This document shows, one piece after another, positions 31,029 to 57,850 of a stretch of 64,000 nucleotides of DNA; positions within the stretch are counted from its first letter, which is position 1; each line of letters begins with the position of its first letter. The DNA lies in contig NC_135820.1 of assembly GCF_964213995.1 (NCBI RefSeq), forward strand, positions 496,001 through 560,000, in the 5' to 3' direction. The position numbers were made by a program, and so were the translations under genes. This stretch comes from Mustelus asterias (taxonomy: Eukaryota). The notes below the pieces were generated by a model, which ran no database searches, was not told the DNA's origin, and saw nothing but the letters and a program-made list of their open reading frames with translations.

Positions 31029-31145
31029 TTATACATTCCCATAAATAGCATCCTCAGAAAAGTCACAGTTTGCATAAAGATCATCTTCTGGGTCAGGACT
31101 GAGGCTGTGTTTAGATTCCATTTCCAGAACCTTCCCATCTTTCTT
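31029..31145 (-). CDS. Siglec-like gene, exon 9 (terminal cytoplasmic): KKDGKVLEMESKHSLSPDPEDDLYANCDFSEDAIYGNV*
   Basis: Acceptor TATTACAG|, phase 0, TAA at 31031-31029; Tyr motifs LYANC and IYGNV. Confidence 0.8.
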   Translation of the reverse strand, partial: KKDGKVLEMESKHSLSPDPEDDLYANCDFSEDAIYGNV

Positions 31146-31239
31146 CTGTAATAGAAACAGAAATGATCAGAGAGATAATCAGAGTGATCTGTGTTTAGTA
31201 TAATTGATCCAAATTGAAACTTCCACCCACACGAGACAT

Positions 31240-32545
31240 TAATTATTGATTCTGAACAGAGTTTGATTATTGATACTGAATGGAGTTTGATTATTGCTAC
31301 TGAACGGGGTTTGAGTATTGACACTGAACGGGGTTTGATTATTACTACTGAACTGAGTTTGATTATTGATACTGAATGGGGTTTGGTTATTGACACTGAA
31401 CGGTGTTTGCTTACTGATACTGAACGGAGTTTGATTATTGCGACTGAACGGGGTTTGATTATTGACACTGAACGGAGTTTGATTATTGATACTGAACAGA
31501 GTTTGATTATTGCTACTGAACGGGGTTTGGTTATTGACACTTAACGGTGTTTGATTATTGATACTGAACCGGGTTTGATTATTGATACTGAACGGGGTTT
31601 GATTATTGACACTGAACGGGGTTTGATTATTGATACTGAACGGGGTTTCATTATTGACACTGAACGATGTTTGATTATTGACACTGAACGGGGTTTGATT
31701 GTTGACACTGAACGGGGTTTGATTATTGATATTGAACGGTGTTTGATTATTGATACTGAATGGGGTTTGATTATTGATACTGATCGGGGTTTGATTATAG
31801 ATACTGAACGGGGTTTGATTATTGACACTAAACAGTATTTGATTATTGCTACTGAACGGTGTTTGATTATTGCTACTGAATGGGGTTTGATTATTGATAT
31901 TGATCGGGGTTTGATTATTGCTACTGAACGGGGTTTGATTATTGATACTGAACGGTGTTTGATTATTGACACTGAACGGGCTTTGATTATTGACACTGAA
32001 CGCTGTTTGATTATTGACACTGAACGGGGTTTGATTATCGATACGAATCGGGGTTTGATTATCGATACGAAACGGGGTTTGATTATTGATACTGAATGGG
32101 GTTTGATTATTGATACTGAACGGGGTTTGATTATTGATACTGAATGGGGTTTGATTATTGATACTGAATGGGGTTTGATTATTAATACTGAACGATGTTT
32201 GATTATTGATACTGAACGGGGTTTGATTATTAATACTGAACGGGGTTTGATTATTGACACTGAATGGGGTTTGATTATCGATACGAAACGGAGTTTGATT
32301 ATCGATACTGAACGGGGTTTGATTATCGATACGAAACAGGGTTTGATTATTGCTACTGAACGGTGTTTGATTATTGCTACTGAACGGTGCTTGATTATTG
32401 ATACTGAACGGGGTTTGATTATTGATACGAAACGGGGTTTGATTATTGATATTGAACAGGGATTGATTATTGATATTGAACGGGGTTTGATTATTAATAC
32501 TGAATGGGGTTTGATTATCGATATGAAACGTGGTTTGATTTGATA
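31240..32545. repeat. 24-bp minisatellite (TTTGATTATTGATACTGAACGGGG), ~54 copies
   Basis: Direct tandem units; yields the spurious ORF (LIIDTERG)n. Confidence 0.97.
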
Positions 32546-32553
32546 ATTAATAC

Positions 32554-32652
32554 CGAATATTTGGCAGCCTCGAAGATTTCATAAAGATTCTCATCTGAAT
32601 CAGGACTGAGGCCGTGTTTAGATTCCATTTCCAGAACCTTCCCATCATTCTT
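32554..32652 (-). CDS. Siglec-like gene, exon 8 (duplicated cytoplasmic): KNDGKVLEMESKHGLSPDSDENLYEIFEAAKYS
   Basis: Acceptor region nearly identical to that of exon 9; 99 bp, phase 0-0; weak donor TCG|GTATTA. Confidence 0.6.
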
Positions 32653-32747
32653 CTGTAATAGAAACAGAAATGATCAGAGAAATAATCAGAGTGATCTGTG
32701 TTTAGTATAATTAATCCAAATTGAAACTTCCACCCACACGAGACGTT

Positions 32748-33260
32748 AATTATTGACACTGAACGGAGTTTGATTATTGACACTGAACGGGGTTTGATTA
32801 TTGACACTGAATGGGGTTTGATTATTGACACTGAACGGGGTTTGATTATTGATACTGAACAGGGTTTGATTATTGATACTGAACAGGGTTTGATTATTGA
32901 CACTGAACAGGGTTTGATTATTGACACTGAACGGGTTTTGATTATTGACACTGAACGGGGTTTGATTATTGATACTGAACGGGGTTTGATTATTGATACT
33001 GAACGGGGTTTGATTATTGATACTGAACGGGTTTTGATTATTGATACTGAACGGGGTTTGATTGTTGACACTGAATGGGGTTTGATTATTGATACTGAAC
33101 GGGGTTTGATTATTGATACTGAATGGGGTTTGATTATTGATACTGAACGGGGTTTGATTATTGACACTGAACGGAGTTTGATTATTGACACTGAACGGAG
33201 TTTGATGATTGATACTGAACGGGGTTTGATTATTGATACTGACTGGAGTTTAATTATTCA
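32748..33260. repeat. 24-bp minisatellite, ~21 copies
   Basis: Same unit as 31240-32545. Confidence 0.97.
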
Positions 33261-33676
33261 CACTGTGCCTTTGAGAAATGTATTTGTAGCATGTTTGTTG
33301 TGAAGGGACTGTTTTATTTTTCAGCCCTGATTACGGCGCTGACTGTTTCCGACCGGCAACCCACGTGCTGAGCATGCAGAAGGATAATCGCTCCGAGTTA
33401 TTGGAGTGTTTGTTTTAATTTGGGTGAATGCAGTTTTGTTACTTTTTGGGGTTGTTCTTTGGGGTTTCATAGTGGGGTTTAATTAGCCTGCCTGACAAGA
33501 AGAGATAGTCATATGAGTGGGCGGAGATAGGCTTCCAGAGAGCAGGCAGTTGGTGTTTGAATTTAAGCGGAGCAGCAACTCTTTTTCTCTCTCCTCTTTT
33601 TGGAAATTGAAGTCTGAGACCTGCTGGAAAATATGTATCAGTGGGAGGTTACTTAGGAGTAAGTAAAACTCAGATG

Positions 33677-34623
33677 GGGCAATTTTACCTTTTTTTATTC
33701 TAAGTGCTGGGCGGACCTGAAACTGGGCGAGTTTCAGATCTGTCTTCTGGGCATGTTCTCAGGCCCCCCTCCCCCCCATATGTACTCTGCCTGCAAAAAT
33801 ATCAGCAAGCCTGTTGCTCACTGCAGAAGCCTGTGGGCGGAGCTTAACACACGTGAAAGCATGTAGAGGGAGGTAGTGCTCATGTGCAGGCCTCTGATGC
33901 TGCACATGCGCAATAGCAGTAACAGGGGTTTGACAGACAAAGAGAGCTGTCAGGCCCCTGCTCGTGCAGGCGGCCTGAAGCAGTCCCCCCTGCAATCACG
34001 GTGGCCCAAGATAAAGCCCCTGCCAACCCCCCAACCCCAGCAATCGTGGACCTGCTGCCCTCCCCCCACCGATCGCTGCAGAGTGGCAGCGGACCCCTCT
34101 CCCCCCCTCCCCCCACCGATTCCTGCAAAATGGCAGCGGGCTCCTGCCCCCCATTAGTCCTGCCCCCTGGCACTGCCCAGTGGGCATTGTCCAGGTGCCC
34201 GGTGGGCATTGCTCAGGTGCCAGGGTGACACTGCCAAATTGGCACTGCCCAAGGGGTACTCCCCTTGGCCTCCCCGGGGGGCCTCAATGGTCTCCGGTTC
34301 AACCGGCGAGGCCAAGTCTGACTGCTCTCTGTTCATGGGGAGCATGTCTATTCCTCTCCGGCGTGAACCTTGCCCGGCGAGGTCACAAAGGGGGGGGCGG
34401 GCCCGGACAATTGAACGCTAGGCTCACGAAGCAGATGTCAAATAGCATTATCATAAATCTCTGTATATTAACCTGCCTCCTGCCCATTTCCAGCGAGAGG
34501 CTGACCGTGCCGGAAATCCGGCACTCGCGAAAACTGGTGCCAATCATGCAAAGTGCTTGACGCCCAACTTTACCACTGCGTCGTGCCCGAAAACTGGTGC
34601 AACGCGATGGTAAAACCATCCCC
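33677..34623 (+). mobile_element. GC-rich MITE-like element
   Basis: Imperfect TIRs GGGGCAATTTTACC / GGTAAAACCATCCCC; poly-C tracts and GGCACTGCC motifs shared with 190-750. Confidence 0.6.
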
Positions 34624-34656
34624 AGAGTGTGTCATGTGAATATGCTCAAACAGTAT

Positions 34657-34825
34657 AAAGCAAATTACATCGGTTGCTGGAATCTGAAACCAAAAGAGAA
34701 AATTCTGGAAAATCTCAGCAGGTCTGGCAGCATTTGTAAGGAGAGAAAGAGCTGACGTTTTGAGTCCAGATGACCTTTTGTCTGTCATGTGGACTCGAAA
34801 CGTCGTACTTTTCTCTCCTTACAGA
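34657..34825. mobile_element. Penelope-like terminal fragment with fold-back
   Basis: GCTGGAATCTGAAAC..CTGGAAAATCTCAGCAGGTCTGGCAGCA; internal inverted repeat; flanked by ATGCTCAAAC(A/G)GTAT duplication at 34642 and 34825. Confidence 0.6.
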
Positions 34826-35157
34826 TGCTCAAACGGTATTTTGATAGGGATAAAAAGCAGAAGAAGGATGTGTTGGTGGTTACAATGCAGAGTGAAAAAG
34901 AACTAGATTATTCTGAAACTGACATTCCTCAAATTGGATTGGACAATGAGGAAGTAATCAAATATTGGGATTTACATACTGAGTTACTTTCAGAAAAAAA
35001 TCAAAATGAACTGAAAGAGTTATTACATTCACATGGAGATATATGTGGGAATGTACTGGGAAAAACTAAAATAAGTGTGCTTGATGTAGAAAATGCTGTT
35101 CCAGTTGAGCAATATTTGTCCAGACTTAATCCACTGAAGCTGTCACAGGTTCAGAAG

Positions 35158-35510
35158 GAAAAGCTGACATTTGCTTGGCCTGAGATGCAGCAGTTGAAAG
35201 TCTCAATCAAACACTACGAAGGGCTGGTGGATAGTTACAAATCTCAGTTAATGAAGACTCGAATGGAGGCAGATGAGTGCAATGTAAAACTGGTGAAGGC
35301 AAAAGAGGAGAATCAGTTAGTGGACAATGATTGATTAAGGAAAGTGAGCCGGAGCGGAGACAAATGCAAGAAAAGTTGACTGATTTGGAAGCTGTTCCTG
35401 AGTTGTTGAACGTCAGCTGCAGGACTGTTAAAAACAACTCATCATCGAGGAGAGGAAAAATGTCGATGAATGAACAGTTATGTGTGATCGCAAAATGGAG
35501 ATTGAGGAGT
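35158..35510 (+). pseudogene. ODF2: ODF2/cenexin-like intronless coding fragment with stops and frameshifts
   Basis: EMQQLKVSIKHYEGLVDSYKSQLMKTRMEADE...KEEN; KESEPERRQMQEKLTDLEAVPELL; QLQDC*KQL..EERKNVD resemble the ODF2 coiled coil as recalled (QQLKASVKNYEGMIDNYKSQVMKTRLEADE...ERKNID). Confidence 0.75.
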
Positions 35511-36156
35511 ATTTTACGACTGCAGGCGAAAGTAAAGGACAACGACGTGAGGTGAGACAGTTTGATGAAACAGTACCATCGTTTGAAATGAACTGCTGGA
35601 ATAATGAATCGATACAGCTTGTACAGATGTGAATACCAAGAGAAGCAGTACTGTTCATAGCTGGTGTTCGAGTAAATTATGATGGTTTTTGCAGCAGCAT
35701 AATTGTCACGGTGATCGTTGGAACCATAATTACAATGAATTTTGACACCAAAGAAGACAATCTGCTATGTATCATTGCAAAGAATATGCAGAAAATGATA
35801 ATGAAGATCCTGAACAATTGAAGAAATTGGTAAAGTAGCTTTGAACAGAAAGATTGGAGATGCGGGAAAGACTGTTGAGACACCATTTCACAACAGAATG
35901 TGGAGTTGGACTGCCTGACAGAGGAATCTGTGAAAATCAAAAGAACTGTTTCGACTGAGCAAAGGAAATTAAAAAGCAAATCCAAAGTAGTTTGTGCAAG
36001 TTTGCATCCAATGTAAAGCTTTCTTGTTCATACTTCAGCTCTGATTATGGTGCCAATTGTCTATGACCAGCAGTCCACATGTTAAGAATGTAGATGAATA
36101 ATTGCTCCTAATTATTGGGGTGTTTGTTTTAATCTGAGTTAATGCAGTTTTGTTAT

Positions 36157-36505
36157 CATAGAATCATAGAATCATAGAAACCCTACAGTGCAGAAGGAGG
36201 CCATTCGGCCCATCGAGTCTGCACCGACCACAATCCCACCCAGGCCCTACCCCCACATATTTTACCCACTAATCCCTCTAACCTACGCATCCCAGGACTC
36301 TAAGGGGCAATTTTTTTAACCTGGCCAATCAACCTAACCCGCACATCTTTGGACTGTGGGAGGAAACCGGAGCACCCGGAGGAAACCCACGCAGACACGA
36401 GGAGAATGTGCAAACTCCACACAGACAGTGACCCGAGCCGGGAATCAAACCTGGGACCCTGGAGCTGTGAAGCAGCAGTGCTAACCACTGTGCTACCGTG
36501 CCGCC
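36157..36505 (-). mobile_element. HE1 V-SINE, full length
   Basis: (ATCATAGA)n tail, V-domain and GGGGCGGCACGGTAGCACAGTGG head on the minus strand. Confidence 0.95.
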
Positions 36506-37296
36506 CCTTTGGGTTGTCCCCTGGGGTTTCAGAGTAGGGTCTCTCAGACAAGAAGAGAGACTCATGAATGGGCGGAGCGAGGTTTACAGAGAGACAAACA
36601 GGCAGTTGCTCTTTGAATTTGGATATTTTTTCTCTCTCCCTCTCTTTCTGGAAATTGAAGTCTGGGACCTGCTACAAAATATGTATCCTTCTCCAGAGGT
36701 CTGCAAAAGGCAAGAAGTGTTTTCTCCCTCTTTCTTTTTTTGGAATTCTGCTGTTTGTGAAGACAGGTCTTTCTCTGAAGGCCACTGTCTGAGAGTCAGA
36801 AGACGGGTGTCTCTCTGTATCTCTGTCTAGACGTTATAGAAGGTTGGAGGCCTAGCAGGCCACATAAGACTCTGTTTTTGCTCACTTATTCTGAAGAGGC
36901 ATTTATGTCTATGGGAAATATTGCATAAATTGGAGGGATTCTGGGGGAAAGGTACTGAAGAAAGGTGGCAGTTTTTCAAGGAATGTCTGTCTAGAGTTCT
37001 ACAGGACAACGTTCCGAGCAGACAGGGAGCTGTCGGTCGGTTAAAGGAACCGTGGTGCACGAAAGCTGTGCGGGACCGAGTCGAGAAGAAAAGGCAAGCG
37101 TACAAAAGGCTCAGAGAGCTTGGCGAAGATAGGGATTTAGAAGAGTATACGGCTTGTCGGAAGGGACTAAAGAAGGAAATTAGGAGAGCCAGAAGGGGTC
37201 ACGAGAAGGCCCTGGCAGGTAGGATTAAGGAGAACCCTAAGGCGTTCTATAAATATGTGAAGAGTAAAAGGATGAGACGTGACGGAATAGGGCCTA

Positions 37297-40200
37297 TAGA
37301 ACATAGAACAGTACAGCACAGAACAGGCCCTTCGGCCCACGATGTTGTGCCGAGCTTTATCTTAAACCAAGATCAAGCTATCCCACTCCCTATCATCCTG
37401 GTGTGCTCCATGTGCCTATCCAATAACCGCTTAAATGTTCCTAAAGTGTCTGACTCCACTATCACTGCAGGCAGTCCATTCCACACCCCAACCACTCTGT
37501 GCGTAAAGAACCTACCTCTGATATCCTTCCTATATCTCCCACCATGAACCCTATAGTTATGCCCCCTTGTAATAGCTCCATCCACCCGAGGAAATAGTCT
37601 TTGAACGTTCACTCTATCTATCCCCTTCATCATTTTATAAACCTCTATTAAGTCTCCCCTCAGCCTCCTCTGCTCCAGAGAGAACAGCCCTAGCTCCCTC
37701 AACCTTTCCTCATAAGACCCACCCTCCAAACCAGGCAGCATCCTGGTAAATTTCCTCTGCACTCTTTCCAGCGCTTCCACATCCTTCTTTTAGTGAGGTG
37801 ACCAGAACTGCATACAATATTCCAAATGTGGTCTCACCAACGCCCTGTACAGTTGCAGCATAACCCCACGTCTCTTAAACTCCAACCCCCTATTAATAAA
37901 AGCTAACACACTATAGGCCTTCTTCACAGCTCTATCCACTTGAGTGGCAACCTTTAGAGATCTGTGGATATGAACCCCAAGATCGCTCTGTTCCTCCACA
38001 GTCTTCAGAACCCTACCTTTGACCCTGTAATCCACATTTAAATTTGTCCTACCAAAATGAATCACCTCACATTTATCAGGGTTAAACTCCATTTGCCATT
38101 TTTCAGCCCAGCTTTGCATCCTATCTATGTCTCTTTGCAGCCTACAACAGCCCTCCACCTCATCCACTACTCCACCAATCTTGGTGTCATCAGCAAATTT
38201 ACTGATCCACCCTTCAGCCCCCTCCTCTAAGTCATTAATAAAAATCACAAAGAGCAGAGCACCAAGCACTGATCCCTGCGGCACTCCGCTAGCAACTTGC
38301 CTCCAATCCGAAAATTTTTCATCCACCACCACTCTCTGTCTTTGATCAGACAGCCAGTTACCTATCCAATCGGCCAACTTTCCCTCTATGCCACACCTCC
38401 TTACTTTCATCATAAGCCGACCATGGGGGACCTTATCAAACGCCCTACTAAAATCCATGTATATGACATCAACTGCCCTACCTTCATTAACACACTTAGT
38501 TACCTCCTCAAAAAATTCAATCAAATTTGTGAGGCACGACTTGCCCTTCACAAATCCGTGCTGACTATCCCGGATTAATCCGCATCTTTCTAAATGGTCG
38601 TAAATCCCATCCCTAAGGACCTTTTCCATCAATTTACCAACCACCGAAGTAAAACTAACCGGTCTATAATTACCAGGGTCATTTCTATTCCCTTTCTTAA
38701 ACAGAGGAACAACATTCGCCATTCTCCAGTCCTCTGGCACACTCCATCTGACGAAGGGGCAGCGCTCCGAAAGCTTATGGTATTTGCTACCAAATAAACC
38801 TGTTGGACTTTAACCTGGTGTTGTGAGACTTCTTACTGTGCTTACCCCAGTCCAACGCCGGCATCTCCACACCATTCCCGTGGACAGCGAGGACCCAAAG
38901 ATCAAAGTCAAAGGCTCTGCAATCTCATCCCTTGCCTCCCAAAGAATCCTAGGATATATTTCATCAGGCCCAGGGGACTTATCGACCTTCAGTTTATTCA
39001 AAAGTGCCAGGACATCCTCCCTCCGAACATCTATTTCCTCCAGCCTATTAGCCTGTAACACCTTCTCTTCCTCAAAAACATGGCCCCTCTCCTTGGTGAA
39101 CACTGAAGAAAAGTATTCATTCATCACCTCGCCTATCTCTACTGACTCCATACACAAGTTCCCACTACTGTCCTTGACCGGCCCTAACCTCACCCTGGTC
39201 ATTCTTTTATTCCTCACATAAGGTAAAATGCCTTGGGGTTTTCCTTGATCCGACCCGCCAAGGACTTCTCATGTCCTCTCCTCGCTCTCCTAAGCCCCTT
39301 TTTCAGCTCGTTCCTTGCTAACTTGTAACCCTCAATCGAGCCATCTGAACCTTGTTTCCTCATCCGTACATAAGCTTCCCTCTTCCTTTTCACAAAACAT
39401 TCCACCTCTTTCATGAACCATGGTTCCCTCACTCGGCCATTTCCTCCCTGCCTGATAGGGACATACCTATCAAGGACACCCAGTATTTGTTCCTTGAAAT
39501 AGTTCCACTTTTCATTAGTGCCTTTCCCTGACAGTTTCTGTTCCCAACTTATGCCCCCTAATTCTTGCCTAATCGCAGCATAATTACCTCTCCCCCAATT
39601 GTAAACCTTGCCCTGCCACAATAACAAAAGACACCGAATTGTGGTCACTATCTCCAAAGTGCTCTCCCACAACCAAATCTAACACTTGGCCCGGTTCATT
39701 TCCCAGTACCAAATCCAATGTGGCCTCACCTCTTGTCGGCCTATCCACATATTGCGTCAGGAAACCCTCCTGCACACACTGCACAAAAACTGCCCCATCC
39801 GAACTATTTGACCTACAAAGGTTCCAATCAATATTTGGAAAGTTAAAGTCCCCCGTGACAACTACCCTGTGACCCCCACACATATCCATAATCTGCTTAG
39901 CAATTTCTTCCTCCACATCTCTATTACTATTTGGGGGCCTATAGTAAACTCCTAACAACGCGACCGCTCCTTTCCTATTTCTAACCTCAGCCCATATTAC
40001 CTCAGTGTGCAGATCCCCCTCGAAGTGCCTTTCCGCAGCCATTAAACTATCCTTGATTAACAATGCTACTCCTCCACCTCTTTTACCAGCTTCCCTACAC
40101 TTACTGAAACATCTATACCCCGGAACGTCCAACAACCATTCCTGTCCTTGTTCTACCCATGTCTCCGTAATGGCCACAACATCGTAGTCCCAAGTACCAA

Positions 40201-42329: not shown

Positions 42330-42745
42330 GTGTTGTGTTTGATTATTGATATTAAATGGATTTGTTTATTGATACTGATCTGTGTTTAATTACTGAAACT
42401 GATGTTGGGTTTGATTATTGATACTGAACGGGGTTTGATTATTGATACTGAACGGGGTTTGATTATTGATACTGAACGGGATTTGATTATTGATGCTGAA
42501 TGGGGTTTGATTATTGATACTGAACGGGGTTTGATTATTGACACTGAACGGGGTTTGATTATTGACACTGAATGGGGTTTGATCATTGATACTGAACGGT
42601 GTTTGATTATTGATACTGAACGGGATTTGATTATTGATGCTGAATCGGGTTTGATTATTGATACTGAACAGGGTTTGATTATTGACACTGAACGGGGTTT
42701 GATTATTGACACTGAACGGTGTTTGATTATTGATACTGAATGATG
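42330..42745. repeat. 24-bp minisatellite, ~15 copies
   Basis: Same unit as 31240-32545. Confidence 0.95.
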
Positions 42746-42874: not shown

Positions 42875-42982
42875 CTTCTGATGACTCAAGGACCTATCAA
42901 ACACACAATTTTCATAAGTAGGACCTTGATATTCATTGATTATACGGTTCAATTTCATCTCCCATTTTGAATCTCCTCTCTT
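42875..42982 (-). CDS. Siglec-like gene, exon 7 (cytoplasmic): KRGDSKWEMKLNRIINEYQGPTYENCVFDRSLSHQK
   Basis: TATTACAG| acceptor, AAG|GTGAGT donor, 108 bp, phase 0-0; homologous to exons 8 and 9; TYENC motif. Confidence 0.75.
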
Positions 42983-43107: not shown

Positions 43108-43192
43108 CCGGGACCCGTCCAATTGCCTGCCTTGAGAGTAACTGCTGACCTGCTCTGCTTGGGCTGAATGTCCTCTTCCTGTGCTGCTCCCT
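43108..43192 (-). CDS. Siglec-like gene, exon 6 (cytoplasmic): GSSTGRGHSAQAEQVSSYSQGRQLDGSR
   Basis: ACACACAG| acceptor, CGG|GTAAGT donor; 85 bp bridges phase 2 to 0; conserved paralog at 6323. Confidence 0.75.
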
Positions 43193-45850: not shown

Positions 45851-45934
45851 TTGACATTAAATGTCAAAATTGCCAGAAATACACACATCTCCTGAAACAG
45901 TAGAAACAAAATGTTGATGTTTTTGTACACTCAC

Positions 45935-46216
45935 TTTCCACAGTAATGGCTATGGACCTCTCCAATCCTCCATGTTCATTCTCTGCTACACACTGATAGA
46001 CTCCACTGTCCCTGGATGTAACGTGAGGAATCACCAACCGCAGCTCATTGTTGGATCTTGTGCTGTTTATTGGGACATCAAGATGTCTCCAGGTCAGGTT
46101 AGAAGCTGGGAAGCTCTCGACAGAGCAGATTATCACTGCCGAATTCCCCTCAGTTATATTGAGCCATGAAGCATTAATCATATCAAGAGAAGTGATTGAG
46201 AGATTTCGTGGCGCAT
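45935..46216 (-). CDS. Siglec-like gene, exon 4 (C2-set Ig)
   Basis: YAPRNLSI...ICSVESFPASNLTW...DSGVYQCVAENEHG; 282 bp, phase 1-1, AG/GT ends. Confidence 0.92.
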
Positions 46217-46359
46217 CTAAAAACCAACATCGATCTTGAGTATTACTGAAAAAGACATATGCTCCTGAACCTTTTCATCTTGGACTTTTCAGGATACTTC
46301 ACATGAATACTAATATATAAAAGGAACAATAATTTACACTGCACGAGAAGAGTGTTGAT

Positions 46360-49300
46360 TGAACACAAGATTTGGAAGCAAGAACAGGCCATTCAGTCAA
46401 TCAAGCCTACTCTGCCATTCGATAAGATCATGGCTAACCCAAATGTGGCCTCAACTCCAGTTTCCCGTCTTCCCTTGCCCCCCCATTAACTATTCACTCC
46501 TTTGTCAATCAAACTTCTATCTATCACATCCTTGAGTTTATTCCCTGACTCATCCTCCACTGCTCTTGAGAAGAGAATTCCAAACATCAACAACCTTCTG
46601 TGAGAGAAAAAGATTCCTTATTTCAGTCTTGAAATGCATTGTCCCCTAGTTCTAGACTCATAGAGTCAGAGTCAGAGAGCCTTAGAGATTTCCAGCATGG
46701 AAACAGGCCCTTCGGCCCAACTTGTCCATGCTGCCCCCTTTTTTTTTTAAAGCCCTAAGCTAGTCCCAATTGCCCGCATTTGGCCCATATCCCTCTATAC
46801 CCATCTTACGCATGTAACTGTCTAAATGCTTTTTAAAAGACAAAATTGTACCCGCCTCTACTACTACCTCTGGCAGCTTGTTCCACACACTCACCACCCT
46901 CTGTGTGAAAAAATTGCCCCCCTGGACCCTTTAGTATCTCTCCCCTCTCACCTTAAACCGATGCCCTCTAGTTTTAGACTCCCTTACCTTTGGGAAAAGA
47001 TATTGACTCTCTACCTTATTTACGCCACTCATTATTTTATAGACCTCTATAAGATCACCCGAAGTCGTCTACGCTCCAGAGAAAAAAGTCCCAGTCTATC
47101 CAGCCTCTCCTTATAACTCAAACCATCAACTCCTGGTACCATCCTAGTAAATCTTTTCTGCGCTCTTTCTAGTTTAATAATATCCTTTCTATATTAGGGT
47201 GACCAGAACTGTGCACAGTATTCCAAGTGTGGCCTTACCAATGTCTTGTACAACTTCAACAAGATGTCCCAACTCTTGTATTCAATGTTCTGACCAATGA
47301 AACCAAGCATGCTGAATGCCTTCTTCACCACTCTGTCCACCTGTGATTCCACTTTTAAGGAGCTGTGAACCTGTACCCCTAGATCTCTTTGCCCTGTAAC
47401 TCTCCCCAATGTCCTACCATTAACTAAGTAAGTCCTGCACTGGTTCAGTCTACCAAAATGCATCATCTTGCATTTATCTAAATTAAGCTCCATCTGCCAT
47501 TCGTCAGCCTACTGGCCCAATTGATCAAGATCCCATTGCAGTCTGAGATAACCTTCTTCACTGTCCACTATGCCACCAATCTTGGTGTCATCTGCAAACT
47601 TACTAACCATGCCTCCTATATTCTCATCCAAATCATTAATATAAATGACAAATAACAGTGGACCCAGCACTGATCCCTGAGGCACACCGCTGGTCACAGG
47701 CCTGCAGTTTGATAAACAACCCTCTACAACCAACCTCTGGCTTCTGTCGTCGAGCCAATTTTGTATCCATTTAGCTACTTTACCCTGGATCCCGTGAGAT
47801 TTAACCTTTTGCAACAACCTATCTTGCAGTACCTTGTGAAAGGCCTTGCTAAAGTCCATGTAGACAACATCAACTGCACTGCCCTCATCTACCTTCTTGG
47901 TTACCCCTTCAAAAACTCAATCAAACTTGTGAGACATGGTTTTCCACTCACAAAGCCATGCTGACTGTCCCTAATCAGTCCTTGCGTCTCTAAATGCTGT
48001 AGATCCTGTCTCTCAAAATATCTTCCAATAACTTACCCACCACAGATGTGAGGCTCACTGGCCTGTAGTCCCAGGCTTTTCCCTGCAACCCTTTTTAATC
48101 AAAGGCACATTTGCCACCCTCCAATCTTCAGGCACCTCACCTGTGACTATTGATGATTCTCTGCCAGGGGACTCCTCCACAAGGGGAAAATCCTCTCAGA
48201 TCCACCCTGAGATGTCCCTTCAGGATCTCTTTTGTTTCATAGATTTATAGATTGATAGACATTTGAGGCACTGTAGGAGGCCATTGGGCCCATCGTATCC
48301 ATGCCAATCAATAAAGATCTGACTACATGAAGCTCATTTTCCAGCGCTTGGCCCACCCATATCCCTGGAGGTTACGGCAGTGCAAGTCAATATCTAAATA
48401 CTCCTCCAATGTTGCAAGAGTTACTGACTTAGTCATCCTTTCAGGCAGTGAGTTCCAGACTCCTATCACCCTCTGAATGAATAAGTTTCTCCTCAACTCC
48501 CCTCTTAGCCTTCTATCTCTTAACTTAAATCTATGCCCCCTGGTTATTGACCCCTCTGCTAATTTCAAAAAGTAACATCTCTTATCCAACCTTTTTATGC
48601 CCCCCTCATAATCTGATACATCTGTATCAGGTCCTTCTCAACCTTCGCTCCTACAAGGAAAACAATCCCAGCCTACCAATCTCTCCTCACAGCTTAAATC
48701 ATTTAGTTCAGGCATCATCCTGGTAAATCTCCTCGGCACTCCAGTACAAGCATATCCTTCCTCTAACATGGTGACCAAAACTACTCCAGTTATGGCCGAA
48801 CCAGCATTTTATACAGTTCCTGCACGACTTCCCGCTCTTGTATTCTATGCTTCGGTTAATAAAGACAGGTATCCCATGTGACTTCTTAACCACCTTATCA
48901 ACCTGGTATGTCACCTTCAGAGATCTCTGGATATGCACTCCAAAGTCCCTCTAATCTTAAAGTTTATTTATCAGTGTCACAAGCAGGCTTACATTAACAC
49001 TGCAATGAAGTTACTGTGAAAATCCCCAAGTTGCCACACTCCGGCGCCTGTTCAGGTACACAGAGGGAGAATTTAGCATGGGCAATCCACCTAACCATCA
49101 CGTCTTTTGGACTGCGGGAGGAAACCAGAGCACCCGGAGCAAACCCTCGCAGACACAAGGAGAATGTGCAAACTCTGCACAGACAGGCTACGAATTGAAC
49201 CCGGGTCCCTGGTGCTGTGAGGCAGCAGTGCTAACCACTGTGTTACTGTGCCGCCCACTGATCCCAGTGCTTTCCCAGGGTCCTACCATTCATAGTGTAA

Positions 49301-50060
49301 TTCTTTGCTTTGTTAGCCTTCCCCAAGTGCATTACCTTAATTCTCCTTTTGAATTTGCCAATGATGTGCCCATCTGACCAGTCCATTGATATCCACCTGC
49401 AGTCCACAGCTAACCTCTTCACTATTTACCACGCTACTAATTTTTGTACCATTTGCAAACTTCTTGACCATATCCCTTACATTCCAGCCCAAATCATGAA
49501 TGTACACCAGCACATAGCAAGGGCCCCAGCACGGAGCCCTGTGTAACCCCTGCTCTTGTATTCATCTCCACATCATAACCCCACTGGAGACAGGCTTTAT
49601 GTTACAGAAACATCCCTGCACCATCATTCTCTGCTTCCTGCCTCTCAGCCAATTTTGGATCCAATGTGCCACTTTGCCTTGGATCCCATGGGCCATTACT
49701 TTCTTGACTAGACTGCCATGAGGGACCTTATCAAAAGCTTTGCTAAAGTCTATTTGGCAACATCAAATGCATTACCATCATCAACACTCCTGGTTACCAA
49801 CTCAACAGAGTTTGATGAAATTTGTCGAACATGACCTTCCCTGAAGAAATCCATGCTGACCATCCCTGATTAATCTGTGTCTATCCAAGGGCAGATATGT
49901 CCTGTCCCTCAGGATTCTTTCCAGTGACCTTCCCACCATGGGGGTTAGACTGACTGGCCTGTAATTTCTTGGTCTATCACGACCTCCCTTTTTGATAATG
50001 GGACAAGTTTAGCAATTTTTCATCCTGTGGCACCACACCCATGGCTAGACACGATTTGAA
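46360..50060 (-). mobile_element. Stack of minus-strand CR1 fragments with a V-SINE at 48958-49257
   Basis: [30 protein letters not shown]; several 3' tails. Confidence 0.85.
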
Positions 50061-50094
50061 AATTACTACCAGTGCTCCAGTTTCAATAAGGTCA

Positions 50095-50890
50095 CATCCC
50101 ATTTTCCCGCCCATTTTTTGGGCATACTTACCTGAATGAATCTCCGAAACTCTGTGCATCACAGAGTGCCTCAGAGGGATTCACGCTGGAAACTGGGGGT
50201 GTGGGGACTCATCCAGCCCGAGAGGCTGGAAGCATAGTGCTCATTGGTTCACTGTGCATGTGCCAATCTGTCAGTGGGGAGATCGGCGCATGCGCACTAG
50301 CCCCCCAACACCCCCCTGCTTCCCAATTGGTGGCCTTCCCAACGCCGCCCCCCCCCCCCCCCCCGCCGCCCCTTGATCGCAGTTCTACTGGATTCCACCC
50401 AGGCCAGTCCGATCTCTGCCCCCCCCCCCCCCGCCAACTCCCCCACCTCCACTACTTGCCGGATGCAACCTCACCATCACTCCCTCCTCCACCGATTGCA
50501 CTGCAGAATGGCAGAGCGTCCCCCCACCGCAGCACTGATCCCTTCTCCAGTAACCCCCGTCCCCTCTGGCCCGGCCCCCTTGGCATTGCCTGGTGCCCCT
50601 CGGCACTGCCCAGTTCCCCTTGGGCAGTGCTAGGCTGCACCTGCCTGCACCAGCCCCCCCAGGAGGGTCTCAATGGCTTCTGTCCCCGCCAGCGGGTGAG
50701 CATGTCTGCTCCCTGTTGGTGGGAAGCAGTTGTAAACCCCGCTGGTGGGAACTACCCCTGGTGGGTTGGGGGGACATTAGCGAGCTCAGAGACTGTCCGA
50801 TTTCACTATGCTAATCAGCACCGCGCGCCAGTCACAAGTCCTGGTAAAGGTCCCCCACTGATGTCTCCTGGCCACTCCGTGAGCGGCCAA
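50095..50890 (+). mobile_element. GC-rich MITE-like element (same family as 190-755)
   Basis: CACTGTGCATGTGCCAATCTGTCAGTG, poly-C tracts, GGCACTGCC motifs. Confidence 0.6.
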
Positions 50891-51072
50891 GGATTCAACA
50901 TTATCTCTGTTTATCTTGTCCAGATGCTACCAGACCTGCTGAGCTTTTCCTGCTTTTCTTCCAGATTTTCACCATTCACAATATTTTGCTTTTATGATGG
51001 TGCTTATGGGATTTTGCTGTGCACAATGTCGACTACTATTGCTAACGTGCAATTAATTGTATCTGTACTCAC

Positions 51073-51366
51073 ATTGCACAATCAGCGTGAAGATCCGCTT
51101 CGATGAAACAGATGGAGATCTCACTCTACAGGTGAGATTGTGTCCGTGGTGCTTGAGTGATGGGATCAGGGTCAGAACAGAAGTATAGGTCAGAGTGACA
51201 CCATGCTGAGTTACAGTGTTTGAGACTGACCCAGGTACGTCAGTGGGAGTGTCCCAGGTTAAGACAGGTGCTGTTCCATTGCACGTTGTGTTGAAGGTGC
51301 AGCTTATGTCCACACGCTTTCCTGCAATAATTTCAGCAGGGAATATCGTGGGTTTATCTGTGAAAT
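51073..51366 (-). CDS. Siglec-like gene, exon 3 (C2-set Ig, domain 2)
   Basis: DFTDKPTIFP...ISCTFNTTCNGTAPVLTW...SVLTLIPSLKHHGHNLTCRV, typical of Siglec domain 2; 294 bp, phase 1-1. Confidence 0.93.
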
Positions 51367-52034
51367 CTAACACACAGAGAATGGATCCTTTTAGATAAAT
51401 ATAACATGAAGCATCAGTTCAAATAGAAATCACAGCCCCACAAGAGAAAGCACTGTTACAAGGAGGAAATCTGACCTGAGATTACAGTGATCATTAAAGA
51501 ATTTCCTATTTTTAGACTTGCTGAAACTCTGTCAGCAGCTTAAAACCAGAAAATTCCACCTGAGGTCAACAGACCTTTGCATAGTTCGCTCCCCCATCTG
51601 CTACAATTCCTGCGGCAGGCGGGATGGAAAAAGTTGCCCCCGTTTCTCTTTACACAGATGCTGCCAGACCTGCTGAGTTTTTCCAGCATTTTCGGTTTTA
51701 ATTTCAGATCTCCAGCATTTGCAGTGATTTGCTTTTACTGGAATCAGATAATCAGGTTATTGATCACATTCCTATTTGTGGGAGCTTGCTGTGCATAAAT
51801 TAGTCACTAATAAATCCAGTCAGGAATTCAGAAGGTACTTATGTGAAATTCAGGAATTAGTCCATTAGCTGTGAACAGATTTTGGTGTCCTGAGGTGGCT
51901 CTCGAAAAAAGGACTCTATTGTCAACATCTGTCAAGGGACAAGATCTACATGCATTTGGATAGGCAAGGACTGATTGGGAAATCATGTCTTACAAAATTC
52001 TCTACAGTTTTTTGAACGGGTGACCAAGAAAATA

Positions 52035-54981
52035 GAGTTGTAGTCCAGAAGTCAGTGAGGGTGGTGAGGTATTGGGGAAGTATCAGGGTCAAGGGTGGGT
52101 ACTGGTAGACAGGAAGGTGGGTTGAAGTGTGTCTACTTCAATGCAAGGAGCATCCGGAACAAGGTAGATGAACTTGGGGCGTGGATTGGTACTTGGGACT
52201 ACGATGTTGTGGCCATTACGGAGACGTGGGTAGAACAAGGACAGGAATGGTTGTTGGACGTTCCGGGGTATAGATGTTTCACTAAGTGTAGGGAAGCTGG
52301 TAAAAGAGGTGGAGGAGTGGCATTGTTAATCAAGGAGAGTTTAACGGCTGCGGAAAGGCACTTCGTGGGGGATCTGCACACTGAGGTAATATGGGCTGAA
52401 GTTAGAAATAGGAAAGGAGCGGTCACGTTGCTAGGAGTTTACTATAGGCCCCCAAATAGTAATAGAGATGTGGAGGAAGAAATTGCTAAGCAGATTATGG
52501 ATATGTGTGGGGGTCACAGGGTAGTTGTCATGGGGGACTTTAACTTTCCAAATATTGATTGGAACCTTTGTAGGTCAAATAGTTTGGATGGGGCAGTTTT
52601 TGTGCAGTGTGTGCGGGAGGGTTTCCTGACACAATATGTGGATGGGCCGACTAGAGGTGAGGCCACATTGGATTTGGTACTGGGAAATGAACCGGGCCAA
52701 GTGTTAGATTTGGTTGTGGGAGAGCAATTTGGAGATAGTGACCACAATTCGGTGTCTTTTGTTATTGCAATGGAGAGGGATAGGGCCGTACGGCAGGGCA
52801 AGGTTTACAATTGGGGGAGGGGTAATTATGATGCGATTAGGCAAGAATTAGGGGGCATAAGTTGGGAACAGAAACTGTCAGAGAAAGGAACTAATGAAAA
52901 GTGGATCTTTTTCAAGGAACAAATACTGGATGTCCTTGATAGGTATGTTCCTGTCAGGCAGGGAGGAAATGGCCGAGTGAGGGAACCATGGTTCACAAAA
53001 GAGGTGGAATGTCTTGTGAAAAGGAAGAGGGAAGCTTATGTAGGGATGAGGAAACAAGGTTCAGATGGCTCAATTGAGGGTTACAAGTTAGCAAGGAATG
53101 AGCTGAAAAAGGGGCTTAGGAGAGCTAGGAGGGGACATGAGAAGTCCTTGGCGGGTCGGATCAAGGAAAACCCCAAGGCTTTTTACTCTTATGTGAGGAA
53201 TAAAAGAATGACCAGGGTGAGGTTAGGGCCGGTCAAGGACAGTAGTGGGAACTTGTGTATGGAGTCAGTAGAGATAGGCGAGGTGATGAATGAATACTTT
53301 TCTTCAGTGTTCACAAAGGAGAGGGGCCATGTTTTTGAGGAAGAGAAGGTGTTACAGGCTAATAGGCTGGAGGAAATAGATGTTCGGAGGGAGGATGTCT
53401 TGGCAGTTTTGAATAAACTGAAGGTCGATAAGTCCCCTGGGCCTGATGAAATGTATCCTAGGATTCTGTGGGAGGCAAGGGATGAGATTGCAGAGCCTTT
53501 GGCGTTGATCTTTGGGTCCTCGCTGTCCACGGGGATGGTGCCAGAGGACTGGAGAATGGCGAATGTTGTTCCTCTGTTTAAGAAAGGGAATAGAAATGAC
53601 CCTGGTAATTATAGACCGGTTAGTCTTACTTCGGTGGTTGGTAAATTGATGGAAAGGGTCCTTAGGGATGGGATTTACGACCATTTAGAAAGATGCGGAT
53701 TAATCCGAGATAGTCAGCACGGATTCGTGAAGGGCAAGTCGTGCCTCACAAATTTGATAGAATTTTCTGAGGAGGTAACTAAGTGTGTTGATGAAGGTAG
53801 GGCAGTTGATGTCATATACATGGATTTTAGTAAGGCGTTTGATAAGGTCCCCCATGGTCGGCTTATGATGAAAGTGAGGAGGTGTGGGATAGAGGGAAAG
53901 TTGGCCGATTGGATAGGTAACTGGCTGTCTGACCGAAGACAGAGGGTGGTGGTCGATGGAAAATTTTCGGATTGGAGGCAGGTTGCTAGAGGTGTGCCGC
54001 AGGGATCAGTGCTTGGTCCTCTGCTCTTTGTGATTTTTATTAATGACTTAGAGGAGGGGGCTGAAGGGTGGATCAGTAAATTTGCTGATGACACCAAGAT
54101 TGGTGGAGTAGTGGATGAGGTGGAGGGCTGTTGTAGGCTGCAAAGAGACATAGATAGGATGCAAAGCTGGGCTGAAAAATGGCAAATGGAGTTTAACCCT
54201 GATAAATGTGAGGTGATTCATTTTGGTAGGACAAATTTAAATGTGGATTACAGGGTCAAAGGTAGGGTTCTGAAGACTGTGGAGGAACAGAGAGATCTTG
54301 GGGTCCATATCCACAGATCTCTAAAGGTTGCCAGTCAAGTGGATAGAGCTGTGAAGAAGGCCTATAGTGTGTTAGCTTTTATTAACAGGGGGTTGGAGTT
54401 TAAGAGCCGTGGGGTTATGCTGCAACTGTACAGGACCTTGGTGAGACCACATTTGGAATATTGTGTGCAGTTCTGGTCACCTCACTATAAGAAGGATGTG
54501 GAAGCGCTGGAAAGAGTGCAGAGGAGATTTACCAGGATGCTGCCTGGTTTGGAGGGTAGGTCATATGAGGAAAGGTTGAGGGAGCTAGGGCTGTTCTCTC
54601 TGGAGCGGAGGAGGCTGAGGGGAGACTTAATAGAGGTGTATAAAATGATGAAGGGGATAGATAGAGTGAACGTTCAAAGACTATTTCCTCGGGTGGATGG
54701 AGCTATTACAAGGGGGCATAACTACAGGGTTCGTGGTGGGAGATACAGGACGGATATCAGAGGTAGGTTCTTTACGCAGAGAGTGGTTGGGGTGTGGAAT
54801 GGACTGCCTGCAGTGATAGTGGAGTCAGACACTTTAGAAACATTTAAGCGGTTATTGGACAGGCACATGGAGCACACCAGGATGATAGGGAGTGGGATAG
54901 CTTGATCTTGGTTTCTGATAAAGCTCGGCACAACATCGTGGGCCGAAGGGCCTGTTCTGTGCTGTACTGTTCTATGTTCTA
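52035..54981 (+). mobile_element. CR1 family B LINE with an uninterrupted 936-aa ORF2 (52095-54905; APE endonuclease + RT), ORF1 absent; nested in an older CR1 (51925-55790)
   Basis: CVYFNARSI, GDFN, SDH, FADDTK in one frame; (TTCTATG) tail. Confidence 0.97.
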
Positions 54982-55176
54982 TGAGGCCAGTGCCGTAGAT
55001 GTTGTCTACATGGACTTTAGCAAAGCCTTTGACAAGATACCACATGGTAGACTGGTCAGTAAGGTTAGATCAGATTGGATCCAGGGATAACTAGCCAATT
55101 GGCTTGTTGGTAGGAGACAGAGTGTGGTGGTAAAGGATTGCTTTTCAGACTGGAGGCATGTGACCAGCAGTGTGCA

Positions 55177-55315
55177 TGATGTGGAGATGCCGGCGTTGGA
55201 CTGGGATAAACATAGTAACAGTTTTAACAACACCAGGTTAAAGCCCAACAGGTTTATTTGGTAGCAAATACCATAACCGGTATTTGCTACCAAATAAACC
55301 TGTTGGACTTTAACC
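55177..55315. mobile_element. Penelope-like fold-back insertion
   Basis: Arms 55236-55272 and 55279-55315; flanking duplication ACCAGCAGT(G/A)TGC. Confidence 0.75.
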
Positions 55316-56179
55316 AGCAGTATGCCGCAGGGATTGGTGCTGGGTCCACTGTTGTTTGTCATTTATATAATCGATTTGGATGAGAATATGGGAGGCATGG
55401 TTAGTAAGTTTGCAGATGACACCAAAATTGATGGTGTAGTGGACAGTGAAGAAGGTTTCCTCAGACTACAACAGGATCTTGAGCAACTGGGTCAGTGGGC
55501 TGAGGAATGGCAGATGGAGTTTAATTCAGATAAATGCGAGGTGTTGCATTTTGGTAAAACAAATTAGGGCAGGACTTGCACAGTCAATGGTAGGACCCTG
55601 GGGAGTGTTGTTGAACAGAGAGACTGAGGGGTGAAGGTACATAGTTCTTCGAAAGTGGTGTCACAGGTAGACTGGGTGGTGAAGAAGGCATTTTGCACAC
55701 TTGCCTTCATCAGTGAGAGCACTGAGTACAGGAGTTGTGAAGTTATGTTACAACTGTACAAGACATTGGTAAAGCCACATTTGGAGTAAAGAACAAAGAA
55801 CAAAGAAAATTACAGCATGGGAACAGACCCTTCGGCCCTCCACGCCTGCACAAAACATACTGCCGGACTTAACTAAAACCCTGTACCCTTCCGTGGACCA
55901 TATCCTTCTATTCCCATCCTACAAAAACAAAGAAAAGGAAAGAACAAAGACTGCGTACAATTCTAGTTGCCCTGCTATCGGAAGGTTGTTTAATCATTGA
56001 CATTAAAATGAGTATTAGAGGTTGCTTTCGGACTGAACTGGAAGTTATCACCAGGTTATTGATAATCAGACACTGCGTTATAATAAGCTGTGTTTTGTTT
56101 TAATTTGTAAACCTCATCATCTGGGTTATTTTCCATCGAGTGTTGAATGTGAATTGTTGAGTAATAACACAGAACTTAC

Positions 56180-56542
56180 CAAAAACATGAATCTGGGTTA
56201 CAGGATAGTTATGGTTTGGACCCTTGTGAAATTCTACTCTGAAAAAATAAGGTCCTGCATCTTCCCGTCTGACGTTGTTTATAATCAGGGAACAGTTGCC
56301 ATCTTTCAGGTTTCCAGACAGCCGGGTCCGATGGCGGAATTGTACTGCCTCAAAAATATGATTCCTGGAGTGAAAGGCTATAGACGATACATCCAATGTC
56401 TTGCTATTAAACCAGACTCCACCCCGCGGTTGGTTTGCCAAGTGTGATGGATAACTGTAATGACATGGAATCTGTACACATGAACCTTCGAAAGCTGTCA
56501 CCTCTCGTGGTGTATCGCCTTTCCAATCCTGTGATAACCCAA
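56180..56542 (-). CDS. Siglec-like gene, exon 2 (V-set sialic-acid-binding domain)
   Basis: W..TPREVTAFEGSCVQIPC...W...RTRLSGNLKDGNCSLIINNVRREDAGPYFFRVE: Siglec SCVxIPC, GNCSL and YFFR (essential Arg) signatures; 363 bp, phase 1-1. Confidence 0.95.
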
Positions 56543-57810
56543 CTGGGGAGAGAAATATAAACATTTAACACTGCATTGTTTGTAGATCCACGAAAGTCAA
56601 TATTCACCCCCTCTGTCACTGAGCACAGTGGCTTCAGTGTGGACCATCTACAGGACACACAAGGAACTCCCCAAGGTTTCACAATGGATGGAAGAGAATC
56701 CTGGACACAGGAGTGGACAAGTTCATTCTACATTGACCCATGGTCTTCAGGACCCTGTTTAATGAAGCCAATCTTCCACCCAACACAATGTCTACAAGAC
56801 GCACCAATGGAGATACATTCAGTGCTGATTGACAAGGCAGGACAATGGATGAGGAGCCGTCAGAACTCCCATCATCATAACCATCACGAATCACTGATTA
56901 GCCTCACCTCCCTGCAAGATCTTCAAAAAGCAGATTGAATCAGATTAGTGAGTTTAGTTTTTTAGAGGATGAGGCTTTGCTGGCTGGGCCAAAATTTATT
57001 GCCTTACCATAAGAATGTCCTTGTGAGCCACCTCATTGTCTAAAGGATTATTTCTGATCCAAACACCCCCATTGTTGTAGCACTGATTCCGATGCAGCAT
57101 TGTAGGCTGATTTGTTCCCAAGCTCAGCGCTGACCCGACTCCAGCAGATACTGAAACACATGGGCAAAGTGCCTCTAGCCTGAGCTCTGGCTGTGTTGAG
57201 AGCAAAGACATATATGCAAACTGAATATTTGACACCTTCAAACACAGCTTTGCTTCTCTATTTCAGTTATCTTGCACCTTTATCAAAGTTTCTAGCATGC
57301 TGAGAGTGGACAGGAAGTGTGATGCTGAACAGTCTGTCTATTCTCGGAGCTGCTGTGTTGTCAAATGGGAAATTCTGACAACAATGAGCGGAACACACAT
57401 TTCTGGACATTCCTATCAGAGTCTGAGCATCAGGATAGACTTGAACACTCCATTTGTATCCATTCATCTCATCTCAACCCATTGGCTCTATCACTCTATC
57501 ATAGATCACCTCCTAGTTCAGCTAGCCTCCATTTTAAGATCCTCATCCTTGATTGGCAATTTGTCCATTACCCCCCAACTCCACTGTCTATCTCTAACCT
57601 CCTCCAGCCCTGCAACCCTCAGATCTCTGCTCTCCTCTAACTCTGCTGTCGGACGGGGAGTCAGTGAGCACAGAGTGATGGGCGAATGGGACTTGGTGTG
57701 AGTTTGTACACTGGGTCACTGCTGAATTGGTTTCCAATCAGAGCTCAATAAGAATGGTCTTTTACAAAGACTATTGACTATAAATCTGTCCGAGCTGACG
57801 CTGATATTAC

Positions 57811-57850
57811 CTTGGAGAAGTGACAGGAGGAAGTAAGATTTCCCAATCAT
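57811..57850 (-). CDS. Siglec-like gene, exon 1 (leader): MIGKSYFLLSLLQ
   Basis: ATG at 57850, CAAG|GTAATA donor in phase 1, joins VGLSQDW; upstream acceptor at 57893 suggests a 5' UTR exon. Confidence 0.8.

What the first reader, a model, noticed from the sequence alone, without database searches (positions are those of the whole stretch)
31029..57850. Complete shark Siglec-like receptor (V-C2-C2-TM) with an atypical YxN-rich tail
Seen: nine exons with canonical GT-AG ends and compatible phases (1,1,1,1,2,0,0,0) spread over 27 kb of mostly TE DNA. The V-set keeps the Siglec inter-domain Cys and the YFFR arginine. The tail has TYENC, LYEIF, LYANC and a terminal AIYGNV, rather than a textbook (I/V/L)xYxx(L/V) ITIM plus TxYxxI ITSM pair. 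Known: YxN is the Grb2-SH2 preference, and Siglecs usually signal via ITIM-SHP1/2 or DAP12. Inference: a lineage-specific chondrichthyan Siglec subfamily with different signalling; the TM has no charged residue for DAP12.
Basis: partly seen in the sequence, partly recalled or inferred. Interest (0 to 1): 0.7.

Follow-up and report, generated by a model that had tools for sequence, protein, structure and literature searches.

The report
Shark Siglec with Grb2-type tail
This is an intact shark gene for a Siglec-type immune receptor, one of a cluster of close relatives, whose tail lacks the usual brake motifs and instead repeats a short motif conserved in sharks and rays that likely recruits the adaptor Grb2; one of the four motifs first reported (LYEIF) is a truncated duplicate exon that is probably skipped.

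Summary
The gene is real. All nine stretches have AG/GT ends and phases 1,1,1,1,2,0,0,0 and join into an open 494-aa frame. The V exon matches a RefSeq Mustelus asterias 'Siglec-13' model exactly. Siglec cysteines and arginine align with MAG and CD33.

Corrections:
(1) The LYEIF exon is a 3'-truncated duplicate of the last exon. It is cut by a minisatellite, has a 4/9 donor, has no counterpart in any relative found, and is not YxN. The likely product has eight exons (461 aa) and three YxN sites.
(2) The gene sits in a cluster of 20 near-full V exons with three tail types: ITIM+ITSM, TM-arginine with a short tail, and this YxN type. Ectodomains are mixed across types, as in paired receptors.
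(3) The tail is one exon module duplicated. Its last exon occurs in seven shark and three batoid species.
(4) YxN is not new to Siglecs (CD22), and similar terminal motifs occur in bony-fish and frog relatives.

Best reading: a predicted co-stimulatory receptor with a DNAM-1/ITT-like Grb2-binding tail. There is no RNA or binding evidence here. It is not CD22; MAG orthology is unlikely. New variant of a known kind.

The parts
57811..57850 (-). Signal-peptide exon (coding part; an acceptor lies upstream, so it is an internal exon)
   Evidence: identical to the N-terminus of P0027; near-identical copies before 10 other cluster units
56180..56542 (-). V-set exon with C35, C40, C97 and essential R115
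   Evidence: Pfam V-set and Ig_CD22; PDB hits MAG, Siglec-10, Siglec-5, CD33
51073..51366 (-). First C2-set exon with the inter-domain cysteine C163
   Evidence: Pfam C2-set_2; alignment to MAG and CD33
45935..46216 (-). Second C2/I-set Ig exon; open and with strong splice sites, but skipped in RefSeq model P0027
   Evidence: present in relatives such as P0041
43721..43817 (-). Transmembrane exon, no charged residue in the helix, juxtamembrane cysteine
   Evidence: helix 237-265 in the AF2 model of P0027
43108..43192 (-). First cytoplasmic exon (cy1), homologous to an element upstream of the signal-peptide exon of most cluster genes
   Evidence: in P0027 and 17 other protein models
42875..42982 (-). 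Tail exon t1 (TYENC), an internal duplicate of the terminal-exon module
   Evidence: donor 9/9; homologues in Cetorhinus, Carcharodon, Rhincodon, Chiloscyllium
42337..42740 (.). 24-bp minisatellite just after t1
   Evidence: the same repeat precedes the last exon in two other C20 genes and the C10 gene of this type
32554..32652 (-). t2 (LYEIF): 3'-truncated duplicate of the terminal exon, probably a pseudo-exon; read-through would stop at 32515
   Evidence: 65/72 nt to t3, then 20/30 to the last exon of a paralogue, then repeat; donor 4/9; junction present in DNA contigs
31242..33265 (.). 24-bp minisatellite array that encloses t2
   Evidence: 84.5 copies
31029..31145 (-). Terminal exon t3 with the pair DDLYANC-x7-YGNV and stop
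   Evidence: 98% identical to the paralogue at C20:255687-255927; homologues in 7 shark and 3 batoid species
35937..35954 (-). Six-codon end (SKQFF, stop) used by RefSeq model P0027; likely a gene-caller artefact
   Evidence: Located; no other copy in 864 kb; no relative ends this way

Best explanation
This is an intact eight-exon Siglec-type receptor gene (V-C2-C2-TM, 461 aa predicted) in a shark paired-receptor cluster, whose tail carries three tyrosine-x-asparagine motifs and would likely signal by recruiting Grb2-family adaptors directly, as a predicted co-stimulatory receptor. Shown: the exons, the Siglec residues, the cluster, the three tail classes, the duplicate origin of the tail exons, and conservation of the terminal exon across sharks and batoids. 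Inferred: (1) sialoglycan binding through R115; (2) phosphorylation of the acid-flanked tyrosines (DDLY, DAIY) by a Src-family kinase after clustering; (3) Grb2/Grap/Gads docking at up to three pYxN sites and output through Vav, PI3K, PLC-gamma or Ras-ERK, as for the DNAM-1 and IgG ITT motifs; (4) skipping of the LYEIF stretch, a minisatellite-associated truncated duplicate; (5) expression in leukocytes.
For: YxN at 3 of 7 tail tyrosines; 0 of 7 fit ITIM or ITSM. In 13 terminal exons (12 relatives and this one) N+2 is 13/13 at the last tyrosine and 11/13 at the one before, with D at -2 in 10/13 (the two tyrosines and the last N were part of the selecting pattern, but an independent BLASTP in the same call found the same proteins). 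DNAM-1's Grb2-binding motif is D/EIYV/MN and needs N+2 (PMC4647266, passages); DIYAN occurs in P0054 and P0022. 28 of 155 tails end in YxN against 0.9 expected from composition (rows are related, so this is not a probability). TM uncharged while sister genes carry a TM arginine (8 proteins) or ITIM/ITSM-type pairs (21 proteins). Tail classes are interleaved on the ectodomain tree. All four other genes of this type in the genome have one terminal exon and no t2.
Against: No RNA, expression, glycan-binding or Grb2-binding data. The terminal motif fits the ITIM pattern [IVLS]xYxx[LVI] in 5 of 12 relatives. Grb2 on CD22 serves an inhibitory calcium pathway (PMC5302901, title and passages), so YxN does not fix the sign of the signal. 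The inhibitory class also has YxN inside its ITIM. The t1 YxN is lost in P0022, P0080 and the C10 gene. t2 has an acceptor identical over 25 nt to that of t3 and lies upstream of it, so it could divert splicing. RefSeq's model of this gene ends before t3. All relatives are predicted models.
Confidence: 0.55

Rival explanations
1. The tail is inhibitory or dampening: the last motif is a degenerate ITIM that binds SHP-1/2 or SHIP, or Grb2 is used as on CD22 to lower calcium signals.
For: Terminal motif fits the ITIM pattern in 5 of 12 relatives; DDLYANC resembles the DLLYANI ITIM of the inhibitory class; CD22-Grb2 attenuates calcium (PMC5302901, passages).
Against: 7 of 12 relatives and this gene have A, P at -2 or K, T at +3 while N+2 never changes; the upstream motif has C at +3 in 12 of 13; the cluster already has a dedicated ITIM+ITSM class.
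Confidence: 0.2
2. The last two tyrosines form an atypical ITAM that binds the tandem SH2 domains of Syk or ZAP-70.
For: Y-x10-Y spacing, the recalled ITAM spacing, is ungapped in all 16 shark hits, with acidic residues before the first tyrosine.
Against: +3 residues are C and V, not L/I; batoid spacing is 8, 9 and 10 (P0083, P0254, P0226); N+2 is what stays constant.
Confidence: 0.1
3. This particular copy makes a different or crippled tail: t2 is spliced in (nine exons, the first reader's model) or captures the splice and terminates the protein before the conserved last motifs.
For: t2 acceptor is intact and proximal; both the nine-exon join and the read-through are open frames; RefSeq found no model reaching t3.
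Against: Donor 4/9, and its GT is the valine codon of a cut S-V-Y-A-N-V; no AATAAA/ATTAAA between t2 and 29502; t3 is intact and nearly identical to a paralogue; no relative has the exon.
Confidence: 0.3
4. It is a plain MAG or CD22 orthologue.
For: MAG is the top PDB sequence hit (E 2.4e-26 for P0027), narrowly ahead of CD33 (3.5e-25).
Against: Three Ig domains; 20 near-full V paralogues at 62-73% identity; CD22-like gene is separate (P0088); other shark V domains hit MAG equally well. No true MAG was in the trees.
Confidence: 0.03

Closest known systems
CD33-related Siglecs (CD33, Siglec-5/14, -10, -11/16)
   Same: V-C2 fold and residues (Foldseek top hit CD33, E 8.5e-19); gene cluster; near-identical ectodomains on inhibitory and TM-charged activating tails, as for Siglec-5/14 (PMC4042635, PMC6288428, passages)
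   Different: This gene has neither ITIM/ITSM nor TM charge; the elasmobranch clade is only in an unresolved polytomy with tetrapod CD33-related Siglecs
CD22 (Siglec-2)
   Same: Siglec with a Grb2-recruiting tyrosine, Y828 in mouse (PMC3342095, PMC5302901, passages)
   Different: CD22 has one such site among three ITIMs; here YxN sites are the only recognisable motifs. The shark CD22-like gene is separate (P0088)
DNAM-1 (CD226) and the IgG ITT motif
   Same: Acidic-[IL]-Y-x-N near the C-terminus, uncharged TM; Grb2 binding gives co-stimulation (PMC4647266, PMC4263166, passages)
   Different: Not lectins; one motif rather than three; binding is shown there and only predicted here
Prolectin (CLEC17A)
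   Same: Glycan-binding receptor whose YxN tail co-purifies with Grb2 (PMC2709368, passages)
   Different: C-type lectin, unrelated fold, also has SH3-binding motifs
RefSeq 'Siglec-13/-12/CD33-like' models of sharks and rays (e.g. XP_078093142.1, XP_078092346.1, XP_078092314.1)
   Same: Same gene and family, named automatically
   Different: The model of this gene lacks the second C2 exon and the last exon; names carry no orthology or tail class

Membership tests
Siglec | N-terminal V-set followed by C2-set domains, type I membrane protein | tested here: met
Siglec | Essential arginine on the F strand | tested here: met
   R115 aligns with the F-R of MAG and CD33; invariant in 30 proteins; 19 of 20 cluster V exons
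Siglec | Intra-sheet cysteine pair and V-to-C2 inter-domain cysteines | tested here: met
   C40/C97 and C35/C163 align with MAG and CD33 cysteines; bond geometry in the model was not measured
Siglec | Arginine-dependent binding of sialic acid | not testable with these tools
   Needs a glycan array
CD33-related Siglecs | Clustered, fast-evolving, paired inhibitory and activating members | tested here: met
   20 near-full V exons in C20:120-760 kb, three tail classes, mixed on the tree
CD33-related Siglecs | ITIM plus ITIM-like/ITSM tail, or TM charge for DAP12 | tested here: not met
   0 of 7 tyrosines fit; TM uncharged. Met by sister genes, not this one
CD33-related Siglecs | Common descent with tetrapod CD33-related genes | tested here: inconclusive
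   Polytomy with SH-aLRT 88 on 126 columns, quick method, no true MAG or Siglec-15
CD22 orthologue | Groups with CD22; long ectodomain; several ITIMs plus YENV | tested here: not met
   Separate gene P0088 has these
MAG orthologue | Single-copy gene with five Ig domains (recalled) | tested here: not met
   Three Ig exons; multi-copy family. The genome's true MAG was not located
ITT-like co-stimulatory motif | YxN core with acidic residues upstream | tested here: met
ITT-like co-stimulatory motif | Phosphorylation-dependent Grb2 binding and activating output | not testable with these tools
   Needs pull-down and cell assay
ITAM | YxxL/I-x6-8-YxxL/I (recalled consensus) | tested here: not met
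   Spacing fits in sharks, +3 residues do not (C, V); batoid spacing varies

The most novel reading that the evidence does not exclude
Siglecs have a third, overlooked signalling mode beside ITIM-phosphatase and DAP12: direct Grb2 co-stimulation through ITT-like tail motifs. It is kept in sharks and rays, present in bony fish, frogs and turtles, and absent as a stand-alone tail from human Siglecs. In sharks the tail was built by capturing the family's own 5' leader exon as the first cytoplasmic exon and duplicating one tyrosine exon, inside a three-class paired-receptor cluster that would push the CD33-like system back to the first jawed vertebrates.
Probability: 0.3. Interest if true: 0.7.

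Novelty: new variant of a known kind. Interest (0 to 1): 0.45.

Why it matters
A fish Siglec paper states that fish genomes lack CD33-related Siglecs and that four Siglecs are regularly present (PMC7226832, abstract and passages; it deals with teleosts). Sharks instead show a large cluster with inhibitory, TM-charged and YxN tail classes on interchangeable ectodomains. That makes two questions testable: whether paired sialic-acid receptors are ancestral to jawed vertebrates or arose repeatedly, and whether a Siglec can co-stimulate through Grb2 alone. It also shows that the RefSeq models in this cluster cannot be used as they stand.

Tried and rejected
RNA support: no RNA holder listed. Two guessed-RNA runs of another organism had no contig on the last exons, and one same-organism run was a low-cover library with adapter ends; this is no evidence either way.

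True MAG was not found among the genome hits or protein searches, so the trees lack it and Siglec-15. Both trees are quick IQ-TREE runs with SH-aLRT only; the careful run did not finish. Rows were hand-picked (63 and 62). 'Amph', 'rept', 'tel' and 'mamCD33r' labels were my guesses from sequence except the rows named.

No complex was predicted, because the binding in question needs phosphotyrosine. The AF2 model is of RefSeq P0027, lacks the second C2 domain, and its tail has pLDDT under 50.

Literature: 8 searches listed no paper on a shark Siglec cluster or this tail; subscription journals are largely not covered and no supplements were read. A 2009 comparative-genomics paper on CD33-related Siglecs in non-mammals and a 2018 Siglec evolution review are recalled only and may mention cartilaginous fish.

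Rejected: assembly artefact for t2 (a DNA contig bridges its unique junction, though possibly from the same animal); t2 as random junction sequence (it is homologous to a paralogue's last exon).
Full report
Observation. Nine stretches have AG/GT ends and end phases 1,1,1,1,2,0,0,0, and join into an open 494-residue frame; without the LYEIF stretch the frame is 461 residues. Pfam gives V-set/Ig_CD22, C2-set and I-set for the three Ig exons. The best solved relatives by sequence are MAG, CD33, Siglec-5 and Siglec-10. C35, C40, C97, R115 and C163 align with the Siglec cysteines and arginine. An AlphaFold2 model of the RefSeq protein (mean pLDDT 79.7) matches CD33, MAG and Siglec-10 first. 74% of the span has three or more other copies in the surrounding 864 kb.

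Identity and setting. The V exon is 100% identical to RefSeq XP_078093142.1, 'Siglec-13' of Mustelus asterias, on a contig of the same length as the window's. That model has 333 residues: it skips the second C2 exon and ends after t1 in five residues with no counterpart in relatives. The window lies in a cluster at C20:97-773 kb with 20 near-full V exons at 62-73% identity to this one; 19 of 20 keep the arginine and 1 of 20 has a stop. A CD22-like gene follows at 879 kb, with its own YENM, DYENV and ITIM motifs (P0088).

Three tail classes. Of 124 proteins held at that point, 21 had an ITIM/ITSM-type pair, typically LLYANI...TEYAQI, 8 had a short tail with an arginine in the TM (one of them on an unrelated ectodomain), 15 had the tail seen here and 7 more had its TM without the last exon; 53 were other and 20 had no TM. 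All three classes occur in this cluster. On a V+C2 tree the elasmobranch family is one clade (42 rows, SH-aLRT 99) in which the classes are interleaved. This is the pattern of paired receptors homogenised by gene conversion, as described for Siglec-5/14 and -11/16 (PMC4042635, PMC6288428, passages). On a V-only tree the family (98) lies in a polytomy (88) with tetrapod CD33-related Siglecs, apart from the CD22/sialoadhesin rows (97); true MAG and Siglec-15 were missing, so orthology is open.

How the tail was built. t1, t2 and t3 share the same acceptor flank and align as copies of one phase-0 exon. The models of two squalomorph sharks have a single such exon, YENC...YANV (P0056, P0061). Galeomorph models have t1 with YENC and t3 with YANC...YGNV, which suggests a duplication in that lineage (inference from two outgroup models). 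The terminal exon is found in seven shark species and, behind a different TM, in Mobula, Hemitrygon and Rhinoraja. A tail-only search returned 10 proteins among 152 candidates, all from sharks.

The LYEIF stretch. Its first 72 nt match t3 at 65 positions. The next 30 match the last exon of the paralogue at C20:137993 better (20/30) than t3 (14/30). After that similarity falls to background where the 24-bp minisatellite starts. Its GT donor is the valine codon of a cut S-V-Y-A-N-V and matches the consensus at 4 of 9 positions, against 7-9 for the others. The four other genes of this class in the genome have one terminal exon. A DNA contig bridges the junction with one difference, so it is not an assembly artefact, though the run may be from the assembled animal. 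I put skipping at about two in three; inclusion or read-through remains possible because the acceptor is intact.

Motifs and mechanism. Three of seven tail tyrosines are YxN; none fits ITIM or ITSM. Across 13 terminal exons the N at +2 is kept 13/13 and 11/13 times, and the residues that an ITIM or ITAM needs vary or are cysteine. The last motif still fits the ITIM pattern in 5 of 12 relatives. The two last tyrosines are ten residues apart in all 16 shark hits, an ITAM-like spacing (consensus recalled), but eight to ten apart in batoids. The nearest functional precedent is DNAM-1, whose D/EIYV/MN motif binds Grb2 after Src phosphorylation and activates Vav-1, PI3K and PLC-gamma1 (PMC4647266, passages), and the IgG ITT motif (PMC4263166, passages). 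I therefore read this class as a predicted co-stimulatory Siglec. The sign is uncertain, because Grb2 on CD22 lowers calcium signals (PMC5302901, title and passages).

Not shark-only. 28 of 155 tails in my protein set end in YxN (0.9 expected from composition; rows are related). Beyond elasmobranchs they include eel, tarpon, arapaima, sea bream, alfonsino, two frogs and a turtle. Whether this is shared descent or convergence is not resolved.

A second oddity. A copy of the first cytoplasmic exon lies upstream of the signal-peptide exon in nearly every cluster unit of any class, often about 0.5 kb away, with a conserved donor, and in the lone gene on C10. For this gene it lies about 39 kb upstream, outside the window. 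RefSeq models in two other sharks splice that exon to a signal-peptide exon (P0040, P0042, P0081). The simplest reading is that a 5' leader exon was captured as tail-coding sequence; the direction is inferred.

Literature. Eight searches listed no description of this cluster or tail. I read passages of PMC5302901, PMC13358205, PMC3342095, PMC4263166, PMC2709368, PMC8455134, PMC13262535, PMC4042635, PMC4810170, PMC6288428 and PMC4647266, and passages plus section 3.3.3 of PMC7226832; no supplements. Subscription papers on Siglec evolution were out of reach and may cover sharks. Earlier scan notes had nothing near this place or for this sequence and one broken shark Siglec tail in another genome.

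Verdict. A real, probably functional member of an apparently undescribed tail class within an expanded elasmobranch Siglec family. New variant of a known kind; interest 0.45.

Noticed in passing
G000:C20:97,000-773,000: Cluster of Siglec-like genes on both strands, many with two or three tandem V exons, in three tail classes, with several broken copies; RefSeq models fuse neighbours (P0012 joins V exons 48 kb apart across a complete gene).
   Followed up: partly
G000:C20:415498-415635, 647367-647494, 737819-737956: TM exons with an arginine (ILGIRA) and a very short tail: the probable activating class; the middle copy is frameshifted.
   Followed up: partly
window 43108-43192 and copies such as G000:C20:102694, 384151, 461436, 592517, 642585, 660934: The first cytoplasmic exon is homologous to an element upstream of signal-peptide exons, probably a 5' leader exon.
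   Followed up: partly
window about 6290-15642, + strand: Fragment of a neighbouring family gene: partial cy1-like element, a broken C2 exon, an intact C2 exon and an inhibitory-class TM exon, with no V or tail exon detected.
   Followed up: partly
G000:C10:90,664,000-90,686,700 (L122-L124): A lone gene of the same tail class on another chromosome; its t1 has lost the acceptor AG and the tyrosine, and RefSeq P0082 skips it.
   Followed up: partly
G000:C20:879,584-982,065: A CD22-like gene with two V domains (P0088) and an inhibitory Siglec-like gene lacking the essential arginine (P0102) flank the cluster.
   Followed up: partly
P0078, P0079 (Carcharodon): Models join an unrelated V domain without the arginine to this tail class, and two isoforms differ by t1; domain shuffling or a fused model.
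   Followed up: no
window 7302-7617, 17399-18232, 29540-30099: Three arrays of a 33-bp satellite, and many LINE-type and short interspersed repeat fragments across the introns.
   Followed up: no
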